From assembly GCF_947500705.1 (NCBI RefSeq), contig NZ_CANMSY010000008.1, positions 66,159 through 130,158 of the forward strand: a DNA stretch of 64,000 nucleotides, read 5' to 3'. Of this stretch, positions 24,300 through 51,950 are shown piece by piece (the first letter of the stretch is position 1; every line of letters starts with the position of its first letter). The stretch is from an uncultured Brachybacterium sp. GTDB lineage: Bacteria > Actinomycetota > Actinomycetes > Actinomycetales > Dermabacteraceae. The translations under genes and the position numbers were made by a program. The notes beneath the pieces are model-generated. The model did no database searches. It saw only the letters and a list, made by a program, of their open reading frames with translations, and had not been told where the DNA came from.

Positions 24300-25606
24300 C
24301 GGGTCTCTCCTGAGGTCTCCGCTGCGGTGATCGTTGCAGCGACGGGTGCGTCGGTGACAGGCGCGTCGGCGACAGGCGCGGCAGCGACGGGCGCGGGCCC
24401 GTCGATGATCAGCAGCTCGGCACGGTGGGCGCGCTCGAGCAGCGCGTCGGCGTCCGCGCCGACGAGGGTGACGTGGCCGATCTTGCGACCGGGGCGCACG
24501 GACTTGCCGTAGAGGTGGATCTTCAGCTCCGGATCGGCGGCGAGCGCGGCATGGGTGCCGGGGGCGAGGTCCTCGGCGGTGCCGCCGAGCAGGTTGACCA
24601 TCACGGAGACCGAGGCGAGGGCGGTGGTCGCGCCGAGGGGCAGATCGGCGACCGCTCGCAGGTGCTGCTCGAACTGGCCGGTGACGGCACCGTCCATGGA
24701 CCAGTGGCCGGTGTTGTGGGGACGCATGGCGAGCTCGTTGACCAGCACCTCGCCGCCCGCCGTCTCGAACAGCTCCACGGCGAGCATCCCGGTGACGCCG
24801 AGGTCCTCCGCGATGGCAAGGGCGAGGGCCTGGATCTGCTGCTGGCCCTCCGCATCGAGGCCGGGCGCGGGTGCGACCACCTCGTAGCAGACCCCGTCCT
24901 TCTGCACCGACTGCACCACCGGGTAGGCCACGGCCTCTCCCCCGGGCCGGCGCGCGACCTGGGCGGAGAGCTCGCGGGTGAAGGGCACCAGCTCCTCGGC
25001 GAGCAGCTCGCCGTGCTCGGCGAGCCAGTCCTGGGCCTGCTCGGCGCGCTCGATGATCCGCACCCCGTGGGCGTCGTAGCCGCCGCGAGGGGTCTTGATC
25101 ACGATGCGGCCGCCGCTCTCGGTGAGTGCGTCCTCCAGGTCCGTCACGGATCCGATCCGCCACCAGCGCGGGCAGGGGTGGCCGAGGGCCGTGAGGCGCT
25201 CGCGCATCACCAGCTTGTCCTGGGCGTGGACGAGAGCCGCGGGGCCGGGTCGCACCGCGGCGATCCCGGCGCGCTCGATGTCTTCGAGGATCCATGCGGG
25301 AACGTGCTCGTGGTCGAAGGTGATCACGTCGACCTCGGCGGCCAGGGCGCTCACCGCCTGCTCGTCGTCGTGTCGACCGATCCGCACCTCGGCGGCGACT
25401 GCGGCGGCGCTCTCCGCGGGGTCGGTGGCCAGCACCGGCGTGGTGAGGTCCAGCTCGATCGCGGGGCCGATCATCATCCGGGCCAGCTGCCCGGCGCCGA
25501 TGAGGCCGACGCTGCGGGCACCCACCGGGCTCTCGGGAGCGGCAGCAGGGGCGACTGCCGGCGTAGGAAGGGTGGTCTGCTCAGGGCGGGGCGGGGTCAT
25601 CGACAC
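24296..25606 (-). CDS. purK: N5-CAIR synthase
   Basis: [38 protein letters not shown] and [13 protein letters not shown]. Confidence 0.95.
24335..24394 (-). repeat. 4 x 15-bp degenerate coding repeat ([20 protein letters not shown]) in the purK tail
   Basis: Units GCGCCCGTCGCTGCC, GCGCCTGTCGCCGAC, GCGCCTGTCACCGAC and GCACCCGTCGCTGCA on the - strand. Confidence 0.8.
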
Positions 25607-36521: not shown

Positions 36522-36578
36522 GACGTCATCTGGCAGCGCTGACGTCATCTGGCAGCGCTGACGTCATCTGACAGCGCC
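36522..36578. repeat. 3 x 19-bp intergenic tandem repeat GACGTCATCTGGCAGCGCT
   Basis: Two exact copies at 36522 and 36541, and a third, GACGTCATCTGACAGCGCC, at 36560. Confidence 0.92.
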
Positions 36579-36584
36579 GACTTC

Positions 36585-40907: not shown

Positions 40908-40970
40908 GTCGGCGCCGGCGCGGGCTCGGAACTCGCGCCGGGACTCCGCACTCAGGCGCGGGCTCCGCAT

Positions 40971-42128
40971 TCAGGCCCGGGCTCTGCGACGCGAGCCGGC
41001 GACGACGGTGGCGAGCACCGCGATCAGCAGCGAGCCGGCGGTGATCACCCCCGCGAGCACCAGCAGCCAGCCGACGGGGATGCCCATCACGGCGACGACC
41101 TTCGTGGTGGTGTAGGTGGGGATCACGTCCTCCGCCTCGGGATCGGGGACGAAGGTGAAGTCGGTGGTGAAGGAGTCCGGTGCCCCGCGCACCTCGAACT
41201 CGGTCACCATGCGGTATGCCGCCGGGCGCTCTTGGCTCTGCGCCGCGTCGCCGAGGTCCTCCCCCGCCAGTTCCCGCAGAGTCGCATCGGACCAGGTCCA
41301 GTCATTGCTCGTGGGTGAGCCGATCCAGGGCCGGTTCACCTCCTGCTGCGCCGCGGACGGGTCGGTGCGGTGCACGGCCGTCTCGCCGAGCACGAAGAGG
41401 TGCACCGTCTGGGCGGTCTCGGCCGCCTGGGAGAAGCGCATCGGGTAGATCAGCTCGTCGGTCTCGAAGTCGAACCTCAGCGGCTCGACGTCCCCGCTGA
41501 GCACGGCGTCGGCCGCATAGCGGACCGCGGTGAAGGTCCATCCGTCCGCAGAGTAGGGATCGATCAGGGCCGAGAGGTCCTCGGACAGGGCGTAGCCGTT
41601 GTCCGTGAGCCAGTTGCGCACCCCGTCGGGCTCTCCGCCGAGCACCGCCACCTCGTAGTCGCCGATCCGCTCCTGGGAATGGACGGTGGGCTGTGCACCT
41701 TCGGTCACGCCGGTGCCAGGTGCACCACCGCCTGCCCCCGCGCCGAACGGGCTCTCGCCCCAGAAGTCGTACTCGATCACCTCACGGGGTGCGGTCGCAG
41801 CCGTCATCTCCCGCAGGGTCCCGGACTGGGCGGCGCTGACCTCCGGCACCGCCGGGGTGGGCATCAGCAAGGTCGAGCCGACGCGTTCGGCATCGAGCGC
41901 GAGGCCCATCACGATCGTCTCCACGCCATCGCGCAGGGAGAGCACCGCGGTCTCCTTCATGACGTTGGCGCCGTCGGGCCGGTCCGCCGGATCGACAAAG
42001 CCGCCGCAGGCGCACGCCGCGGCCGGCGACGCAGCCCCGAGGACCAGCTGCGCCATGAGCAGGGCGCCCGCGAGCAGACCGCAGAACCAGCGACGGAAGG
42101 TCCGGTCGGTCGCGAGCGCCGAGCCCAT
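40971..42128 (-). CDS. DUF2330-like exported/membrane-anchored protein
   Basis: Signal-like N-terminus, then ACACGG; PLRFDFETDELIYPMR; C-terminal TM. Confidence 0.65.
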   Translation of the reverse strand: MGSALATDRTFRRWFCGLLAGALLMAQLVLGAASPAAACACGGFVDPADRPDGANVMKETAVLSLRDGVETIVMGLALDAERVGSTLLMPTPAVPEVSAAQSGTLREMTAATAPREVIEYDFWGESPFGAGAGGGAPGTGVTEGAQPTVHSQERIGDYEVAVLGGEPDGVRNWLTDNGYALSEDLSALIDPYSADGWTFTAVRYAADAVLSGDVEPLRFDFETDELIYPMRFSQAAETAQTVHLFVLGETAVHRTDPSAAQQEVNRPWIGSPTSNDWTWSDATLRELAGEDLGDAAQSQERPAAYRMVTEFEVRGAPDSFTTDFTFVPDPEAEDVIPTYTTTKVVAVMGIPVGWLLVLAGVITAGSLLIAVLATVVAGSRRRARA

Positions 42129-44113: not shown

Positions 44114-44156
44114 CACGCTGATCACGCTGATCACGCTGATCACGCTGATCACGCTG
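44114..44156. repeat. 9-bp VNTR (CACGCTGAT) x4.8
   Basis: Four exact units plus CACGCTG. Confidence 0.92.
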
Positions 44157-46123: not shown

Positions 46124-47461
46124 TCACTGCTTGATGTACGGCTGGCCGTCGGCCGCTGGCACCCGCACTCTGCCCACGACACCTGCCACGGCGAACAGCG
46201 CGACGATGTACGGGAGCATCAGCAGGAAGTCGCCGGGGATGGAGACTCCGCCTTCGGCGGCGGACATCGTGCCCAGACGCAGCTGGAGCGAGTCCGCGAA
46301 GGCAAAGGTGAGCGCCGCGAGGAGCGCGCCGACCGGATGGTAGCGGCCCAGGATCATCGCGGCGAGCGCGATGTAGCCCTTGCCGGCGGACATCTCCTCG
46401 CCGAAGGCGACTCCGGTGCCGATGGTGAGGGTCGCCCCGCCGAGGCCCGCGACCGCGGAGCCCAGCAGCACGTTCTTCCAGCGGGTGAGGTTCACGGCGA
46501 TGCCGACGGTGTCGGCGGCTTTCGGATGCTCGCCGACGGCGCGCACGCGCAGCCCCCAGCGGGTGCGGAACAGCGCGACGGTCAGTCCCGCGACGATGAT
46601 CCACATCAGGTAGACGAGGATGTTCTGCTCGAACAGCGCGGCGCCGACCAGCGGGATGTCTGCCAGCACCGGGATCCGCAGCGTGGGCAGTCGCATCGGA
46701 GCGTTGAACAGCCCGGGGTTGTCGCTCATCACGGACCCGAAGAAGAACGAGGTGAGCCCGATCGCGAGCACGTTCAGCACCACACCGACGATGATCTGCT
46801 GGACGTGATAGCCGACCGCGAACATGGCCAGCAGCGCGCCCATGAACATGGCGACGATCGGTGCGGCCACCAGGCCGATCCAGACGCTGCCGGTGATCGA
46901 GCCGACCAGGGTGGCACCGAAGGCGCCGAACAGCAGCTGCCCCTCGATCGCGATGTTGATGACGCCCGAGCGCTCTGAGAGCACCCCGGACAGGGCGCCG
47001 AAGGCCAGCGGGACGGCCAGCACGATGGTGCCTTGCAGCAGGGTGGTCACATCCAGCGTGCGCTGGGAGATCACCCAGGTCATGAACGCCAGGATCCAGG
47101 CCACCGCGAACACGGCGATCAGCGTGAGGCGCGCGCGGGCCGACGGCCGGGCGCTGCGGGCATGGAGCACCCAGAGCGCGGCCGAGGCGAGCAGCGCGAT
47201 CACCGACAGCGCGATAGCGCCGCCCATCGACGAGACGACGATGCGCTCGGGGATGAGGCCGAAGGGGTTCAGATCGCTCTCATGGACCACGACGTACGCG
47301 GAATCCACACCCGGGATCCCGCGCAGGCCGAAGACGACCAGAGCGAGCAGGCCCATCACGGTGGTGGTGGCTGGAAGGTGCCACCAGCTCGTGGGGCGGA
47401 CGTCGGTGAATGCCTTCTCCACCGGCGAGTCGTCGGCGACGACGTGAGGTGCAGTGCTCAT
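46124..47461 (-). CDS. Nucleoside ABC transporter permease
   Basis: SERSGVINIAIEG, RAVGEHPKAADTVG and GKGYIALAA. Confidence 0.9.
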   Translation of the reverse strand: MSTAPHVVADDSPVEKAFTDVRPTSWWHLPATTTVMGLLALVVFGLRGIPGVDSAYVVVHESDLNPFGLIPERIVVSSMGGAIALSVIALLASAALWVLHARSARPSARARLTLIAVFAVAWILAFMTWVISQRTLDVTTLLQGTIVLAVPLAFGALSGVLSERSGVINIAIEGQLLFGAFGATLVGSITGSVWIGLVAAPIVAMFMGALLAMFAVGYHVQQIIVGVVLNVLAIGLTSFFFGSVMSDNPGLFNAPMRLPTLRIPVLADIPLVGAALFEQNILVYLMWIIVAGLTVALFRTRWGLRVRAVGEHPKAADTVGIAVNLTRWKNVLLGSAVAGLGGATLTIGTGVAFGEEMSAGKGYIALAAMILGRYHPVGALLAALTFAFADSLQLRLGTMSAAEGGVSIPGDFLLMLPYIVALFAVAGVVGRVRVPAADGQPYIKQ

Positions 47462-48981
47462 CGCTCCTCCTCCTGCGCATCGGTGCGGTCCTCGGACGAG
47501 TCCGCTGCGGGGGTCGGTCCTTCCAGGGAGGAAGGATCGGTGTCGTCGGTCGCGTGGGGATCTGGTGGTCCGCCGCTGGTCGCGGTGCCCGCAGCTCCGG
47601 GGGCGCCGGAGGTGACAGCGACCTTCTCGGCACCGGTCCTGGGACGGCGGGCACCCCGCACGCGAGCGGCGGCGCCGGGATGGTCGATGCGGCGCAGGCC
47701 GATCAGCGTCCGCACCAGCGGCGGGGCGGCGATGAACAGCACCACGAGCACCTGGATCACCTGCACCAGGTCCAGCGGGACGCCCTGGTTGGATTCCATG
47801 AAGCGCCCACCCGTGGACAGCCCCGCGAAGAGCAGGCCCGCGAGCACGATGCCGACCGGGCCCGAGCGGCCCAGCAGCGCCACGGTGATGGCATCGAAGC
47901 CGAGGCTCCCGGCCACACCCTCGGTCAGCCTCTGCTCGGTGCCGAGCACGTGCACAGCACCGGCGAGACCCACCAGGGCCCCGGCGACGGCGAGCACCAG
48001 GAAGGAGGTGCGGGCCGGGGAGATCCCGGCGACCTGCGCGGCACGAGGATTGGAGCCCACCGCGCGGAAGTGGAAGCCGATGGTGGAGCGACTCATCAGC
48101 CACCACAGCAGCACGGCTGCCCCGGCGGCGAGGAACAGACCTGCGTGGAGGCGGAACCCGGAGCCCAGCAGCAGCGGCAGCACCGCGTTGTCGCCCACGG
48201 AGGGCGAGGTGGGCTGGGACTGGTTGACGCCGGTGAACGCTGAGGTCTTGAGCGCGAAGAACAGCAGGTACGTGGCGATCCAGTTCAGCATGATGGTGCT
48301 GATGACCTCATTGGCTCCGAAACGGGCCTTGAGGAAACCGGCGATGCCGCCCCACACCCCACCGGCGAGGACACCGGCGATCAGGCAGGCCAGCAGATGC
48401 ACGACGATCGGAAGCTCGAAGGTGAAGCCCACGTAGCCGGCAGCCATCGCGCCGGCGATCAGCTGGCCGGTGCCGCCGATGTTGAACAGCCCGGCGCGGA
48501 AGGAGACGGCCATGCCCGCGGACGCGATGATCAGCGGGGTGGCGACGGTGAGGGTCTCGGTGAGGGGCCGAAACCCCGCGGAGAGAGCAGGGAGCAACAC
48601 ATAGGTGCCAGACCCTCCGGCCTCCCGGACGCTCTCGGCAGCCCGCGTGTAGCCGGGGATGTCGAAGATCGCTCCGCGGAACATCGCGCCATAGGCCTGG
48701 GTGACCGACTGCCAGATCGCGGACAGCGCGTCGGTGGGGCGGGCGAAGAAGTAGCTGAGGGTCCCACGGACCTCCTGGTTGGCGATCACGATCAGCACGG
48801 AGCCGATCAGGAAGGCGAACACGAAGCTCATCACCACGACCAGCAGGTCGCCACGGGCGATCTTCTGCAGGGTCCTGGCCAGAGCCGTCTCCGCGGACTC
48901 GGAGGGTGGCGGCGGGGTGTCGGAGCTTCCCGCCCCGACACCGGGGGCGGAGCCGGACTCGGCGGCCTCGAGCGTGCTCAT
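47458..48981 (-). CDS. Nucleoside ABC transporter permease
   Basis: GLFNIGGTGQ, GANEVISTIMLN, AVGSNP and GFDAITVALLGR; true start MSTLE at 48981, not the repeat-containing extension in the ORF track. Confidence 0.88.
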   Translation of the reverse strand: MSTLEAAESGSAPGVGAGSSDTPPPPSESAETALARTLQKIARGDLLVVVMSFVFAFLIGSVLIVIANQEVRGTLSYFFARPTDALSAIWQSVTQAYGAMFRGAIFDIPGYTRAAESVREAGGSGTYVLLPALSAGFRPLTETLTVATPLIIASAGMAVSFRAGLFNIGGTGQLIAGAMAAGYVGFTFELPIVVHLLACLIAGVLAGGVWGGIAGFLKARFGANEVISTIMLNWIATYLLFFALKTSAFTGVNQSQPTSPSVGDNAVLPLLLGSGFRLHAGLFLAAGAAVLLWWLMSRSTIGFHFRAVGSNPRAAQVAGISPARTSFLVLAVAGALVGLAGAVHVLGTEQRLTEGVAGSLGFDAITVALLGRSGPVGIVLAGLLFAGLSTGGRFMESNQGVPLDLVQVIQVLVVLFIAAPPLVRTLIGLRRIDHPGAAARVRGARRPRTGAEKVAVTSGAPGAAGTATSGGPPDPHATDDTDPSSLEGPTPAADSSEDRTDAQEEER

Positions 48982-49148
48982 ACGTTCATCTCCTGCCGCT
49001 CGTTCCTCGCAGTTCGTCGCCGAACACTGCTCACTGCGTTCATCTCCTGCCGCTCGTTCCTCGCAGTTCGTCGCCGAACACTGCTCACTGCGTTCATCTC
49101 CTGCCGCTCGTTCCTCGCAGTTCGTCGCCGAACAATGGTGCTCATACG
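48974..49148 (-). repeat. MIRU-like intergenic element: 2.8 x 54-bp tandem unit flanked by an 11-bp direct repeat
   Basis: Units at 48983-49036, 49037-49090 and 49091-49134 (partial) are identical; GTGCTCATACG at 48974 and 49138. Confidence 0.93.
48978..49145 (-). CDS. Repeat-encoded 55-aa small ORF, translationally coupled on both sides
   Basis: MSTI-(VRRRTARNERQEMNAVSS)2-VRRRTARNERQEMNV*; its ATG overlaps the ATPase TGA and its TGA overlaps the permease ATG (both ATGA). Confidence 0.5.
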   Translation of the reverse strand: MSTIVRRRTARNERQEMNAVSSVRRRTARNERQEMNAVSSVRRRTARNERQEMNV

Positions 49149-50713
49149 ATCTCTCCTTCGTCGGCGAGCTGGGAGTCAGTGGTACGGGCGCCGGCGGCGA
49201 CAGCCTCACGGGCGGCCTCGACGCTGTAACCGGCCATCATCAGGCCGAGCACATCGCGATCCTCGTCCCCCGGGACGATCCCCAGGATCTTCCCGCGGTA
49301 CATCACGGCGATGCGATCCGCGAGCTGCGTGACTTCGTCGAGCTCGGTGGAGACGATCACCACCGGGGTGCCCTTGTCCCGCTCGTCGAGGATGCGGCGG
49401 TGGAGGAACTCGATCGAGCCCACGTCCACGCCGCGGGTGGGCTGGGAGGCGATCAGGAGAGCGAGCTTGCGGTGGAGCGCGCGGGCCATGACGACCTTCT
49501 GCTGATTGCCGCCGGACAAGGTGGAGACGGCGGACACCGCCGATTCTGTGCGGATGTCGAACTCCGGGATCAGGCGCTCCGCGTTCTCGCGGATGGTCCT
49601 GAGCTTCATCGCCAACGCGCTGCCGAAGGGCGCGCGGTCGTGCTGGTCCAGAACCAGGTTCTCGGCGACGGAGAAGTCGGCGACCAGCGCGTCGTGGGTG
49701 CGGTCCTCGGGGACGAAGCCGACGCCGGCGTCGAGCACCTGTTTGGTGGTGCGTCCCACCAGTTCCTGTCCTTCGAGCTTCGCCGAACCGTGCACGGTCT
49801 CCTGCAGCCCCAGCAGGGCTTCGGTGAGCTCGGTCTGGCCGTTGCCCTGGACGCCTGCGATCGCGAGCACCTCGCCGTGGCGCACCTCGAAGGAGACGCC
49901 GTCGAGGGTCCTGGTCCCGGCCGCATCGCTGACCCGCAGGTCGGTGACCTGGAGCGCGATCTCGCCGGGGGTGGCCGCAACCTTGTCCTGCGCGAGGGAG
50001 ACCTGGCGACCCACCATCAGCGACGCGAGCTCCGCCTGGTCCGCGGACGGGTCGGCCTCGCCGACGACCTTGCCGCGACGGATCACGGTGATGCGATCGG
50101 AGACCGCCTTGACCTCGCGGAGCTTATGGGTGATGAACACGATCGAGGTGCCCTCGTCCCGCAGCTGACGCATGATCTCCATCAGCTCGTCGGTCTCGTG
50201 CGGGGTGAGCACGGCGGTGGGCTCGTCCAGCACCAGCACCTCGGCACGACGGCTGAGCGCCTTGATGATCTCGACGCGCTGCTGGGCACCGACGGGCAGG
50301 TCCTCGACCAGGGCGTCGGGATCGAGATCGAAGCCGAAGCGGGCGGAGATATCCCGCACCAGCTTCCTGGCGGCGGCGAGGTCGAGCAGACCACCCTTGG
50401 TCGGCTCGTTGCCCAGCACCATGTTCTCGGCGACGGTGAAGACGGGGACCAGCATGAAGTGCTGATGGACCATCCCGATGCCGGCGTCCATCGCGTCGCC
50501 GGGGTCGGAGAAGGTGACCGGGGTGCCGTCGATGACGATCTGCCCGCCATCGGGCCGGTAGAGCCCGTACAGCACGTTCATCAGGGTCGACTTGCCGGCC
50601 CCGTTCTCACCCAGCAGGGAATGGATCTCCCCCGGTTCGACGACCAGGTCGATGGCGTCATTGGCCACGAATCCCCCGAAGGTCTTCGTGATCCCGCGCA
50701 GTTCGAGTTTCAC
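49142..50713 (-). CDS. Nucleoside/sugar ABC transporter ATP-binding protein (two NBDs)
   Basis: GENGAGKST, VGAQQRVEI, LDEPT and LSGGNQQK. Confidence 0.93.
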   Translation of the reverse strand: MKLELRGITKTFGGFVANDAIDLVVEPGEIHSLLGENGAGKSTLMNVLYGLYRPDGGQIVIDGTPVTFSDPGDAMDAGIGMVHQHFMLVPVFTVAENMVLGNEPTKGGLLDLAAARKLVRDISARFGFDLDPDALVEDLPVGAQQRVEIIKALSRRAEVLVLDEPTAVLTPHETDELMEIMRQLRDEGTSIVFITHKLREVKAVSDRITVIRRGKVVGEADPSADQAELASLMVGRQVSLAQDKVAATPGEIALQVTDLRVSDAAGTRTLDGVSFEVRHGEVLAIAGVQGNGQTELTEALLGLQETVHGSAKLEGQELVGRTTKQVLDAGVGFVPEDRTHDALVADFSVAENLVLDQHDRAPFGSALAMKLRTIRENAERLIPEFDIRTESAVSAVSTLSGGNQQKVVMARALHRKLALLIASQPTRGVDVGSIEFLHRRILDERDKGTPVVIVSTELDEVTQLADRIAVMYRGKILGIVPGDEDRDVLGLMMAGYSVEAAREAVAAGARTTDSQLADEGEIV

Positions 50714-50831: not shown

Positions 50832-51950
50832 TCAGACTCCCGCGGGAGCAGCCTCGGACTCGACCTTGACGGTGCCGTCGATGATCTCCTGCTCGAGGGC
50901 ATCCAGCTCTTCGGTGAGCTCTGCCGGGACGTCCTCCTCGAAATCGTGGAAGGGGGCCAGGCCCACTCCGCCGTTCTCGAGGGTGCCGACGTACGGGGTG
51001 GCGTCGAACTCGCCACCGGCAGCACCGGCGATGACATCCTCGACGCCCACGGTCATCTCCTTCATGACGGAGGTGAGGATGACCGACTGCGCCTCGGGAT
51101 CGGCGGAGTTGGTCTCGTAACCATCCGCGTCCACCCAGATCACCTTGCGGTTCTCGCCTTCCTTGGCAGAGGCGAGCGTACCGGCACCGACGGGACCGGC
51201 CACCGGCATCACGATGTCTGCTCCGGCGTTGTAGAACTCGTCGGAGACTGCCTTGCCCTTGGACTGGTCCTCGAAGGTGCCGACGATGGAGCCGGACTGG
51301 GTCTCCTTGTTCCAGCCGAGCACCTCGACGTCCTCACCGTGGGTCTCGTTGTAGTGGGCGACGCCGTCGACATAGCCGTCCATGAAGATGGTGACGGTGG
51401 GGATGTCCACGCCGCCGTAGGTGGCGACCTTGCCGGTCTCGGTCATGCCCGCGGCCAGGTAGCCGGCCAGGAACGCGGCCTCGGCGGTGTTGAACTCGAG
51501 GGGCTTGACGTTCTCCAGCTCGAGCGGAGCGCCGTCGGCGTCCTGAGCGGTGGAGTCGACGATCGCGAAGTCGGTGTCGGGGTTCTCCTGCGCGGCCGCA
51601 CCGGTGGCCGGCGCCAGCAGGAAGCCGACGGTAATGATGAGATCGCAGCCCTGGGTCACCATGTTGTTGATGTTCGGGGCGAAGTCGGAGACGGTCGTGG
51701 ACTCCGCGGTCTGCGTCTCGACGCCGAGATCCGCCTTCGCATTCTCGAGGCCCTTGAAGCTGGACTCGTTGAAGGACTTGTCATCCCAGCCGCCGGCGTC
51801 GGAGACCATGCAGGCCTTGTAGTCGCTCGAGGCGCCGCCGGCATCGCTGCCGCCGTTGCTCCCTGCGGTCTCCTCCGGGGCGGTGCCGCAGGCGGCGAGG
51901 GTCAGGGCGCCGGCGCCGACCAGGGCGAGGGCACGCGTGATGCTCTTCAT
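50832..51950 (-). CDS. BMP-family nucleoside-binding lipoprotein
   Basis: Lipobox LAAC; GGWDDKSFNES, VIWVDADG and TSVMK. Confidence 0.92.
   Translation of the reverse strand: MKSITRALALVGAGALTLAACGTAPEETAGSNGGSDAGGASSDYKACMVSDAGGWDDKSFNESSFKGLENAKADLGVETQTAESTTVSDFAPNINNMVTQGCDLIITVGFLLAPATGAAAQENPDTDFAIVDSTAQDADGAPLELENVKPLEFNTAEAAFLAGYLAAGMTETGKVATYGGVDIPTVTIFMDGYVDGVAHYNETHGEDVEVLGWNKETQSGSIVGTFEDQSKGKAVSDEFYNAGADIVMPVAGPVGAGTLASAKEGENRKVIWVDADGYETNSADPEAQSVILTSVMKEMTVGVEDVIAGAAGGEFDATPYVGTLENGGVGLAPFHDFEEDVPAELTEELDALEQEIIDGTVKVESEAAPAGV

What the first reader, a model, noticed from the sequence alone, without database searches (positions are those of the whole stretch)
48974..49148. MIRU-like self-coupling repeat element inserted at an ATGA stop/start junction
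Seen: (1) 2.8 identical 54-bp units between the ABC ATPase and the permease. (2) The junction sequence CGTATGAGCAC (sense) is duplicated at both ends, 164 bp apart, like a target-site duplication. (3) A 55-aa ORF starts in the ATPase stop (ATGA) and ends in the permease start (ATGA), so translational coupling is kept. (4) Each unit has a sense-strand hairpin GCAG(UG)UUCG-GCGA-CGAACUGC with a GNRA tetraloop, followed by an SD-like AGGAG; the last copy can supply the permease RBS. (5) The permease frame is also open through the repeats, which could mislead annotators. Known: mycobacterial MIRUs are short intergenic units whose mini-ORFs overlap the flanking stop and start codons. Inference: an analogous, possibly undescribed, non-autonomous element family in Micrococcales that stays harmless in operons by carrying its own coupling signals. 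Copy number could tune downstream expression.
Basis: partly seen in the sequence, partly recalled or inferred. Interest (0 to 1): 0.8.

Follow-up and report, generated by a model that had tools for sequence, protein, structure and literature searches.

The report
MIRU-like stop-codon repeat family in Brachybacterium
The 164-base spacer between two transporter genes is three copies of a small hairpin repeat, apparently undescribed, that is scattered over Brachybacterium genomes, always sits on a gene's TGA stop codon, and here carries a throw-away reading frame that probably hands ribosomes on to the next gene, much as the MIRU repeats of the tubercle bacillus are thought to do.

Summary
Window 48982-49145 (minus strand) holds three units (57, 54 and 53 nt). 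They lie between the ATGA stop/start of a nucleoside-type ABC ATPase and the ATGA start of its permease, and form one 55-codon ORF.

It is not a local oddity.
- About 15 loci (about 24 units) in this genome share an invariant core, CTGCGAGGNACGAGCGGNAGGAG.
- 42 of 55 Brachybacterium genomes carry 1-48 units. Other genera do not.
- At this junction 16 congeners have the empty ATGA overlap, and the six closest species compared (five from the relatives search, plus sp. Z12) carry 1-2 units.

There are two forms.
- The coupling form, as here, has 53- or 56-nt units, each a 17-19-codon ORF bounded by NTGA. The chain is unbroken in 28-30 of 31 arrays.
- The commoner form lies in 3' UTRs, where a stable, covarying hairpin contains the stop codon itself.

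Sites are biased to GNC|TGA, and no transposase partner was found.

The design matches mycobacterial MIRUs, but sequence homology to them is not demonstrable. My verdict is a real, apparently undescribed family and a new variant of a known kind.

The parts
49142..50713 (-). ABC transporter ATPase gene (two ABC_tran domains). Its TGA stop (49144..49142) overlaps the first ATG of the element.
   Evidence: ORF list. Pfam PF00005 at 4.9e-50. Orthologues at 80-94% identity in congeners.
48982..49145 (-). The inserted array: 164 nt, three units of the Brachybacterium repeat in its coupling form ('type B').
   Evidence: TRF, core matches, absence from 16 orthologous junctions, CM R2 scores of 72-76 bits.
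49089..49145 (-). Unit 1 (57 nt). It begins with ATGA, which overlaps the ATPase stop.
   Evidence: Sequence, alignment A1.
49035..49088 (-). Unit 2 (54 nt). It begins with GTGA, but the TGA is out of frame, so the ORF runs on.
   Evidence: Sequence. Comparison with the 53-nt units of relatives.
48982..49034 (-). Unit 3 (53 nt, the length typical of the family). The permease ATGA follows it.
   Evidence: Sequence, alignment A1.
48978..49145 (-). Mini-ORF of 55 codons (MSTIVRRRTARNERQEMNAVSS...), ATGA-coupled at both ends. It is probably a relay frame and not a functional protein.
   Evidence: ORF list. No Pfam family. In relatives it is split into 18-19-codon ORFs.
48990..48994 (-). Shine-Dalgarno-like AGGAG of unit 3, 8 nt upstream of the permease ATG. 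Equivalent copies lie at 49044-49048 and 49098-49102.
   Evidence: Sequence. These columns are invariant in 38 type B and 111 type A units.
49138..49148 (-). Upstream copy of the flanking direct repeat CGTATGAGCAC (target duplication or partial unit).
   Evidence: Sequence. Empty sites read GATCGTATGAGCACC.
48974..48984 (-). Downstream copy of the flanking direct repeat CGTATGAGCAC. It contains the permease start codon.
   Evidence: Sequence.
47458..48981 (-). Permease 1 gene (BPD_transp_2). The true start is the ATG at 48981..48979.
   Evidence: Pfam PF02653 at 2.5e-43. The N-terminus MST...GSAPGVG aligns with orthologues that start at the ATGA overlap.

Best explanation
The spacer is a three-unit array of a Brachybacterium-specific, hairpin-forming, non-autonomous repeat. 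It was inserted once, in the ancestor of a subclade, exactly at the ATGA stop/start overlap between the ATPase and permease genes of a Bmp/PnrA-type ABC importer.

Shown:
- The family is dispersed.
- It always lies in the sense orientation, directly on the TGA of an upstream gene.
- It prefers GNC|TGA sites.
- Copy number varies between species.
- It is absent from orthologous sites in many congeners.
- It has a conserved core flanked by covarying stem arms.

There are two forms.
- In the coupling form every unit is 53 or 56 nt (2 mod 3), starts with NTGA, stays open for 17-19 codons, and carries AGGAG about 8 nt before the next NTGA.
- The commoner 3'-UTR form is a very stable hairpin whose 5' arm contains the stop codon and the last codon of the gene.

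Inferred:
- A ribosome that terminates on the ATPase UGA re-initiates on the unit's AUG. It melts the weak hairpin, terminates on the next UGA and re-initiates again. The permease therefore stays translationally coupled and the insertion stays nearly neutral.
- In this genome a 1-nt gain made the period 54 nt. That fused the units into one 55-codon relay ORF without breaking the final ATGA.

How the element spreads is unknown. No transposase was found. Any model must account for junctions that duplicate 8-15 nt including the TGA, and for a 3'-arm base complementary to the middle base of the gene's last codon. These features point to a mechanism guided by homology or base pairing, or to template switching, rather than to a classical transposase.
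For: Family in the own genome: nhmmer and CM searches find about 15 loci and about 24 units. All lie 0-18 nt after a long sense ORF ending in TGA.

Genus-wide: a pattern scan gives more than 116 stretches, almost all in Brachybacterium. CM R1 hits 42 of 55 genus genomes with 1-48 units each. It finds nothing credible in about 380 other genomes of the order or about 400 of the class.

Filled and empty sites: at this junction L007-L022 are empty (ATGA overlap). L002 and L006 carry 2 units and L003-L005 carry 1 unit. Brachybacterium sp. Z12 carries 2 units (L053). A 3'-UTR locus is filled in 5 species and empty in about 24.

Context: at least 101 of 112 arrays directly follow a sense ORF's TGA. 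The 123 arrays lie behind 65 distinct upstream genes, and copy numbers differ at orthologous sites.

Coupling geometry: the NTGA chain is unbroken in 28 of 31 type B arrays. The count is 30 of 31 if two small downstream genes are included.

Structure:
- Type A has 94% of cells paired, and 97 compensatory cells against 28.3+-5.0 in shuffles (0 of 500).
- Three type A pairs covary, at (3,44), (8,39) and (15,33).
- The type B outer helix has 29 compensatory cells against 12.1+-3.0.
- Type A hairpins fold with z of -4.7 to -6.1.

Target: the last codon is GNC in 34 of 42 independent loci, against 30% of 1931 TGA genes. The flank base at -2 pairs with the 3' arm in 36 of 42 loci, against 13 in shuffles.

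No Y1/HUH or OrfB genes are present in this genome.
Against: Relay translation is therefore inferred from geometry alone.

The window's own array is not more stable than shuffled sequence (z 0.16; single unit z +0.74).

Units within an array, and orthologous arrays, are not independent observations.

The strong conservation of the core across species would also fit a host function, such as a protein-binding RNA, instead of or in addition to a selfish element.

No new insertion has been observed and no mobilising enzyme has been identified.

The copy number of three was not verified in reads.
Confidence: 0.8

Rival explanations
1. Host-selected cis-acting RNA module. On this reading the hairpin with its invariant loop GAGGNACGA and the AGGAG is a functional 3'-UTR or intercistronic element. 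It could be an exonuclease block like REP, an RNase or protein binding site, or a structure that affects termination or ribosome recycling. Selection would then explain its spread and conservation, with mobility secondary. This can coexist with the main explanation.
For: 26 of 51 type A columns are invariant across 111 distinct units from many species, while neighbouring intergenic DNA cannot be aligned. Covariation is present. Hairpins are very stable (z to -6.1). Orientation is strictly sense and the position at the stop codon is fixed. Most type A copies are followed by a separate terminator-like hairpin.
Against: 13 of 55 genus genomes, and every other genus searched, lack the element, so it is dispensable. 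The host genes are functionally unrelated. Copy number drifts between 1 and 7. Rfam has no matching family. Conservation of the core could equally reflect the needs of the propagation machinery, or recent spread.
Confidence: 0.3
2. True distant homologue of mycobacterial MIRUs. Both would descend from one ancient actinobacterial element, and the resemblance would not be convergence.
For: The two share one architecture: NTGA, then a 5' arm, GACGA, a core, GGAG(G)A, a 3' arm and NTGA, with a 53-nt modal unit. The consensus-to-consensus alignment has 37 identities. Its score is beaten by 0 of 3000 shuffles, and by 0.4% when the ATGA is held fixed. The only hit of the Brachybacterium type B covariance model in the 4.4-Mb H37Rv genome is a genuine single MIRU unit, aligned in register. 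Both families have long variants with an extra apical hairpin, 77 bp in MIRU and 84-91 bp here.
Against: That CM hit has E 0.38 and 16.8 bits, so it is not significant on its own. The classical MIRU-VNTR loci score 9.4 bits or less and align out of register. A MIRU HMM finds nothing at the element loci in this genome (best E 0.4, elsewhere). No intermediates were found in about 800 genomes of the order and class. The shared features (SD, ATGA, GC-rich stem) are the ones convergence would produce.
Confidence: 0.25
3. Purely local event. Replication slippage duplicated the ATPase/permease junction in place, and no element family is involved.
For: The units are nearly identical, and the flanks repeat the junction sequence. 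The 5' end of the unit resembles the permease 5' end in empty sites.
Against: The same core occurs at about 15 unrelated loci in this genome and at 65 or more sites in the genus. The single-unit insertions in L003-L005 are not duplicates of local sequence.
Confidence: 0.03
4. The 55-aa product (or the 18-aa peptides MSTxRRRxARxEREE...) is a functional small protein.
For: The ORF is intact and well placed for translation. The arginine/glutamate-rich motif recurs in type B units.
Against: The peptide motif follows from the conserved nucleotide core. The same core sits in untranslatable type A units that have CTGA and no downstream gene. The number and fusion state of the peptides vary between species. 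There is no Pfam match.
Confidence: 0.05

Closest known systems
MIRUs, mycobacterial interspersed repetitive units (Supply et al. 1997, Mol Microbiol 26:991; summarised in PMC3184786 and PMC12548453)
   Same: Both are 40-100-bp units in tandem arrays, dispersed over the genome and in sense orientation within operons. Each unit is a small ORF whose ends overlap the neighbouring stop and start codons as NTGA. The modal unit is 53 bp, and longer variants carry an extra hairpin. Short direct repeats flank filled sites, and empty sites exist in relatives. Copy number is variable. An SD-like GGAGG lies before the next start. The overall fold is a long imperfect hairpin.
   Different: The host is a different order (Brachybacterium, Dermabacteraceae). 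Profile-level sequence similarity is not significant. Most copies here are a 3'-UTR form with CTGA junctions and no mini-ORF, whose stable hairpin contains the stop codon. I did not find such a form described for MIRUs in the reviews I read. The GNC|TGA site bias and the pairing with the last codon have not been reported for MIRUs, as far as I could find.
REP/BIME and other small extragenic palindromic repeats (reviewed in PMC3184786)
   Same: These are also short GC-rich hairpins, often in tandem, in transcribed 3' regions after stop codons. They may stabilise upstream mRNA.
   Different: REPs occur in both orientations and are mobilised by RAYT (Y1 HUH) transposases. They do not carry coupling ORFs and are not anchored on the stop codon itself. 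This genome has no Y1 transposase.
MITEs such as Correia/NEMIS, RUP and Nezha
   Same: These are non-autonomous and dispersed, are flanked by short duplications, and are co-transcribed with neighbouring genes.
   Different: No terminal inverted repeats match any IS here. The duplication length is variable (about 8-15 nt), not fixed. Orientation is strictly sense. Arrays are tandem.
MIRU-like mini-ORF repeat families noted earlier in this scan (Acidimicrobiia, Gaiellales, other high-GC actinobacteria, Saccharibacteria; AI notes)
   Same: They share the design principle: a small repeat on stop/start or start codons, with its own relay ORF, hairpins and SD, and no detectable match to MIRU sequence.
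   Different: Their sequences, unit lengths (39-135 nt) and hosts differ. None of the notes I saw describes a dominant terminal-stop hairpin form or pairing with the last codon. I did not re-test those notes.
Ribosome termination structure (RTS), a stable mRNA structure just downstream of stop codons (PMC7518266, abstract only)
   Same: It is a stable hairpin immediately at or after the stop codon, in an operon context where re-initiation matters.
   Different: The RTS is a general structural tendency and not a repeated sequence family. Any functional link to this element is speculation.

Membership tests
MIRU (mycobacterial interspersed repetitive units) | Short (about 40-100 bp) units in direct tandem arrays at many dispersed loci | tested here: met
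   Units are 52-57 nt (long variants 84-91 nt) in arrays of 1-7. There are about 15 loci in this genome and 65 or more distinct sites in the genus.
MIRU (mycobacterial interspersed repetitive units) | Unit ORFs whose ends overlap the stop and start codons of the flanking genes (-4 nt, NTGA) | tested here: met
   This holds for the window array and for 28-30 of 31 type B arrays. It does not hold for the majority type A form (CTGA, 3' UTR).
MIRU (mycobacterial interspersed repetitive units) | Same orientation as the adjacent genes | tested here: met
   All 15 loci in this genome and at least 101 of 112 arrays in the genus.
MIRU (mycobacterial interspersed repetitive units) | Filled and empty sites in relatives, with short direct repeats at filled sites | tested here: met
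   At the ABC junction 16 sites are empty and 6 filled, including this genome, with the direct repeat CGTATGAGCAC. At a 3'-UTR locus 5 sites are filled and about 24 empty, with direct repeats CCGTCTGA and CTGTCTGA.
MIRU (mycobacterial interspersed repetitive units) | Sequence similarity to the MIRU consensus | tested here: not met
   The MIRU HMM against this genome gives best E 0.4, and not at element loci. CM R2 against H37Rv gives one hit at E 0.38, which is a true MIRU unit aligned in register. The classical MIRU loci score 9.4 bits or less. The consensus alignment is modestly better than shuffles. Taken together this is suggestive but below significance.
MIRU (mycobacterial interspersed repetitive units) | Host genus Mycobacterium | tested here: not met
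   The named hits are Brachybacterium spp.. CM R1 found nothing credible in a sample of 400 genomes of the class, which included the genus later identified as Mycobacterium.
MIRU (mycobacterial interspersed repetitive units) | Co-transcription with the flanking genes as polycistronic mRNA, and translation of the unit ORF | not testable with these tools
The consensus scan finds no promoter-like or terminator-like site in 48600-49500.
REP elements mobilised by RAYT | A cognate Y1 HUH (RAYT / IS200-like) transposase in the genome | tested here: not met
   PF01797 gives 0 matches in this genome while the controls respond. PF01385 (OrfB) also gives 0.
MITE | Terminal inverted repeats, and a target duplication of fixed length matching an IS family | tested here: not met
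   The apparent end complementarity is locus-specific and not general. In 14 single-unit loci the duplicated flank varies from 0-7 nt before the TGA and 0-9 nt after it.
Any Rfam RNA family | A covariance-model match | tested here: not met
   cmscan of 48500-49600 at E up to 10 returns only chance-level hits outside the array.

The most novel reading that the evidence does not exclude
The Brachybacterium elements, the MIRUs and the other MIRU-like families may be branches of one widespread actinobacterial class of TGA-anchored hairpin elements. On this reading they spread without a dedicated transposase. A single-stranded hairpin intermediate (or a nascent strand that switches template) would pair with GNC-TGA at the end of a gene. 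That would explain why the 3' arm carries the complement of the host gene's last codon and why the junction duplications vary in length. The 3'-UTR form would be the basic element, and the coupling (MIRU-type) form a derivative adapted to stop/start overlaps.
Probability: 0.2. Interest if true: 0.85.

Novelty: new variant of a known kind. Interest (0 to 1): 0.62.

Why it matters
MIRUs have served as typing markers for 25 years, yet how they move and what they do is still unknown. The papers I could search describe them only in mycobacteria.

This family has the same design and lives in a non-pathogenic, fast-growing genus with dozens of sequenced species. It offers clean filled and empty sites, two related forms (a coupling form and a terminal-stop form), a defined site preference (GNC|TGA) and a covarying hairpin. 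Those features make the open questions testable:
- whether the mini-ORF really relays ribosomes;
- whether copy number tunes the downstream gene;
- what recognises the hairpin;
- how the element is copied.

There are practical points too. The arrays break short-read assemblies. The open permease frame through the repeats can mislead start-codon annotation. The loci would make VNTR markers for Brachybacterium.

Tried and rejected
**Searches that found nothing**
- Rfam scan of the region: nothing.
- RAYT/HUH and TnpB/OrfB partners: absent.
- Reading the exact 54-nt unit as a multi-copy element: only this locus matches at full length. The family appears only with the core or a profile.
- MIRU HMM against this genome, and Brachybacterium CMs against the order, the class and H37Rv: no significant cross-hits.
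- Literature searches for MIRU-like elements outside mycobacteria, or repeats in Brachybacterium: nothing relevant.
- Earlier scan notes for this genome or for look-alike stretches: none on this family.

**Structural and mechanistic ideas rejected**
- My first inner-stem register (16-20 with 30-35) gave way to the MFE register, which shows covariation at (15,33).
- Thermodynamic support for the window array itself is absent (z 0.16).
- MITE with terminal inverted repeats: the end complementarity seen at two loci is not general.
- SECIS or read-through signal after UGA: the host genes are unrelated, the units repeat the TGA, and most are followed by terminators.

**Checks that could not be run**
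- My first automatic context filter under-counted (61 of 78). I replaced it after inspecting the misses by eye.
Full report
**1. What is in the window**

The genes lie on the minus strand. The operon runs in this order:
- a Bmp/PnrA-type binding protein (50832-51950);
- an ATPase with two ABC domains (49142-50713);
- two BPD_transp_2 permeases (47458-48981 and 46124-47461).

Between the ATPase and permease 1 lie 164 nt (48982-49145). They consist of three head-to-tail units of 57, 54 and 53 nt. TRF reports period 54, 3.0 copies and 98% matches. The 43-nt core occurs exactly three times, against 0 expected.

- The ATPase TGA overlaps an ATG (ATGA). From that ATG a 55-codon ORF runs through all three units and ends in a second ATGA, which is the permease start.
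- The sense sequence CGTATGAGCAC flanks the array on both sides (49148..49138 and 48984..48974).
- AGGAG lies 8 nt before the permease ATG.
- A 583-codon ORF in the permease frame is open through the array.

**2. It is one locus of a dispersed family**

BLAST with the whole unit finds only this locus. Partial hits elsewhere came in tandem with periods of 52-62 nt. Iterated nhmmer and two covariance models give about 15 loci and about 24 units in this genome. All share the core CTGCGAGGNACGAGCGGNAGGAG. One array lies at a contig break (end of C13, start of C2). Every locus follows, within 0-18 nt and in sense orientation, a long ORF that ends in TGA. At several loci the downstream gene is convergent, so those copies lie in 3' UTRs.

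**3. Taxonomic range**

Nearly all are in named Brachybacterium species and MAGs, in arrays of up to 6-7 units. Covariance model R1 hits 42 of 55 genomes of the genus, with 1-48 units each. Thirteen genomes have none. The other Dermabacteraceae genera sampled, about 380 further genomes of the order and about 400 of the class give only chance-level single hits. Rfam has no matching family.

**4. Filled and empty sites**

At the orthologous ATPase/permease junction, 16 congeners (ATPase identity 80-91%) have the plain ATGA or GTGA overlap. An example is GGAGAGATCGTATGAGCACCGTCGCG. The five closest species in the relatives search (identity 92-94%) carry one unit (L003-L005) or two units (L002 and L006). 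Brachybacterium sp. Z12 also carries two (L053). The insertion is therefore old, shared by a subclade, and variable in copy number (1-3).

In those species each unit is 53 nt and is its own 18-codon ORF (MSTxRRRxARxEREExxx), chained by ATGA or GTGA. In this genome the internal junction reads GCAGTGA where relatives have GCATGA or GCGTGA. The period is therefore 54 nt and the ORFs are fused.

I also examined a 3'-UTR locus (C1:466731). It is filled in this genome and in four other species, including one distant species (76% identity in the upstream protein). It is empty in about 24 species. One species keeps an internally deleted remnant. One has a 19-nt duplication of the stop region without a core.

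Across 123 arrays there are 65 distinct upstream genes. Copy numbers differ at shared sites, for example 6/2/3/1.

**5. Two forms with one core**

- *Type A* is the majority form. It reads xxC-TGA-(T/G)CGACGTRCTGCGAGGNACGAGCGGYAGGAG(A/C)TCAG-x', then about 10 variable nt, then xxC-TGA. The TGA is the stop codon of the upstream gene. Junctions are CTGA, so there is no usable start codon, and periods are 53-56 nt.
- *Type B* is the form in the window. It makes up about 30 of 115 arrays. It reads NTGA-GCACC, then a 5' arm, GACGAACTGCGAGGNACGAGCGG(G/A)AGGAGA, a 3' arm and NTGA. Units are 53 or 56 nt, both 2 mod 3.

I followed the reading frames in 31 type B arrays. In 28 of them there is an unbroken chain: upstream stop, then one to five mini-ORFs of 17-19 codons, then a long downstream ORF. 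Two more arrays end in a 53-codon gene. This geometry, together with the invariant AGGAG before each next start, is what translational coupling by termination and re-initiation requires. That ribosomes actually use it is inference.

**6. Structure**

The 111 distinct type A units align without gaps. A 15-pair interrupted hairpin is 94% paired. It has 97 compensatory cells, against 28.3+-5.0 in shuffles (0 of 500), and it collapses when the 3' partners are slid.

Three pairs covary:
- (8,39): UA 89, GC 15, CG 2;
- (15,33): AU 47, GU 31, GC 26;
- (3,44): CG 40, GC 34, AU 10, UA 5.

Single type A hairpins fold at about -23 to -25 kcal/mol, with z of -4.7 to -6.1. The 5' arm contains the UGA stop codon and the last codon of the gene.

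In type B the equivalent outer helix lies inside the mini-ORF. It also covaries, with 29 compensatory cells against 12.1+-3.0 (0 of 500). The inner stem carries mismatches, and stability is modest (z -0.8 to -2.7). The window's own unit (z +0.74) and the whole array (z 0.16) are no more stable than shuffles. A weaker hairpin in the translated form would make functional sense, but that is inference.

It is broken in L062 and L133, where the long-range stem is compensated.

**7. Site preference and junctions**

I took one representative for each of 42 distinct upstream flanks.
- The last codon is GNC in 34 of 42, against 30% of 1931 TGA-terminated genes in this genome.
- The last base is C in 41 of 42, against 63% in the background.
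- The middle base of that codon is Watson-Crick complementary to the base after CAG in the 3' arm in 36 of 42. Shuffles give a mean of 13 and a maximum of 23.

The downstream junction varies. It repeats 0-7 nt before the TGA and 0-9 nt after it. At clean single insertions the duplications are 8-12 nt (CCGTCTGA, CTGTCTGA, CAGCTCTGAGTC).

No Y1/HUH transposase and no OrfB/TnpB are present. These facts do not fit a classical transposase with a fixed target duplication. Three explanations would fit:
- sub-lineages of the element that each integrate by short homology at a matching GNC-TGA;
- template switching;
- extension of the palindrome into the flank after insertion.

I cannot tell these apart.

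**8. Comparison with MIRUs**

It is the 4,411,532-bp genome with an exact MIRU-26 primer match at 2995983. I fetched twelve MIRU-VNTR loci from it.

In sense orientation the units read ATGAGTCGCGCCGGTGACGATGCAGAGCGAAGCGATGAGGAGGAGCGGCGCAG|ATGA (53 nt). Variants of 77 nt carry an extra hairpin.

The plan is the same as type B: NTGA, a 5' arm, GACGA, a core, GGAGGA, a 3' arm and NTGA. The MFE folds are alike. Long variants of 84-91 nt with an extended apical stem also exist in Brachybacterium.

The sequence evidence is weak.
- A MIRU HMM finds nothing at the element loci.
- CM R2 gives a single hit in H37Rv, at E 0.38 and 16.8 bits.
- That hit is a genuine single MIRU unit at an ATGA...ATGA junction, aligned in register.
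- The classical MIRU loci score 9.4 bits or less.
- The consensus alignment beats shuffles, 0 of 3000 and 0.4% with the ATGA held fixed.

My conclusion is that the element works like a MIRU and is built like one. Membership of the MIRU sequence family is not shown. Common descent is possible, at roughly one chance in four.

**9. Known or new**

The searchable literature describes MIRUs only in mycobacteria. It holds nothing on such repeats in Brachybacterium. Earlier notes of this scan report analogous MIRU-like families in other Actinomycetota and in Saccharibacteria. I treat those as unverified leads. They suggest that the kind is widespread, which lowers the surprise of finding one more family.

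What this case adds is:
- a dominant form at terminal stop codons;
- a stop codon embedded in a covarying stem;
- the GNC|TGA bias and the pairing with the last codon;
- good material for comparing filled and empty sites.

**10. Limits**

No reads or RNA data could be consulted. The copy number in this strain, co-transcription and translation of the mini-ORF are therefore unverified. Units within arrays, and orthologous arrays, are not independent. Where it mattered I reduced the data to one representative per flank. E-values from the covariance models are rough, because calibration was shortened.

Noticed in passing
genome contigs C13:63486-63560 and C2:1-160 (outside the window): An array of the same family (55-nt units, at least 4 copies) lies exactly at the end of one contig and the start of another. 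These repeats therefore break the assembly, and array lengths in draft genomes are probably underestimates.
   Followed up: partly
L205 (G015:C8:195350-195700), L206 (G041:C55), L207 (G014:C23): Long variants of the element (84-91-nt period) keep both arms and the loop motif but have an extended GC-rich apical stem. This parallels the 77-bp MIRU type, which is a 53-bp unit plus an extra hairpin.
   Followed up: partly
L209 (M. tuberculosis H37Rv 1179342-1179402): A single MIRU unit lies between two ATGA overlaps at a locus that is not one of the twelve MIRU-VNTR loci I fetched. It was the only genome-wide hit of the Brachybacterium type B covariance model.
   Followed up: partly
L178, L181, L187, L192/L196 and L201 (orthologous 3' UTRs of the gene at own C1:466731): In species that lack the element, the spacer after the same stop codon often carries other short tandem duplications, some of which include the stop region. 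Examples are AGGCCTGAC three times in L187 and a 19-nt duplicate of the last codons plus TGAG in L201. These may be excision footprints, or they may reflect a general tendency of stop-proximal DNA to duplicate.
   Followed up: no
L040 and L074, L124: In a few type A copies the TGA position reads CGA or TGG (for example GTGTCCGATCGACG, where the orthologous copy has GTGTCTGATCGACG). In those species the upstream gene would read on into the element.
   Followed up: no
whole genome: About 94% of confidently called long ORFs end in TGA, and TGAGC is the commonest context after the stop (32%). This resembles the 5' end of the element (TGAGC or TGATC).
   Followed up: no
window 36522-36581, 44114-44156, 24339-24395 and 40917-40984: Other short tandem repeats in the window have periods of 19, 9, 15 and 19 nt and 3-5 copies. 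They are probably inside coding regions and look unrelated to this family.
   Followed up: no
L062, L063, L069, L080 and L084: A few core matches lie in MAGs labelled Corynebacterium, Klebsiella, Nesterenkonia or Nocardioides. The Corynebacterium-labelled and Nesterenkonia-labelled contigs carry typical type B units and may be mis-binned Brachybacterium DNA.
   Followed up: no
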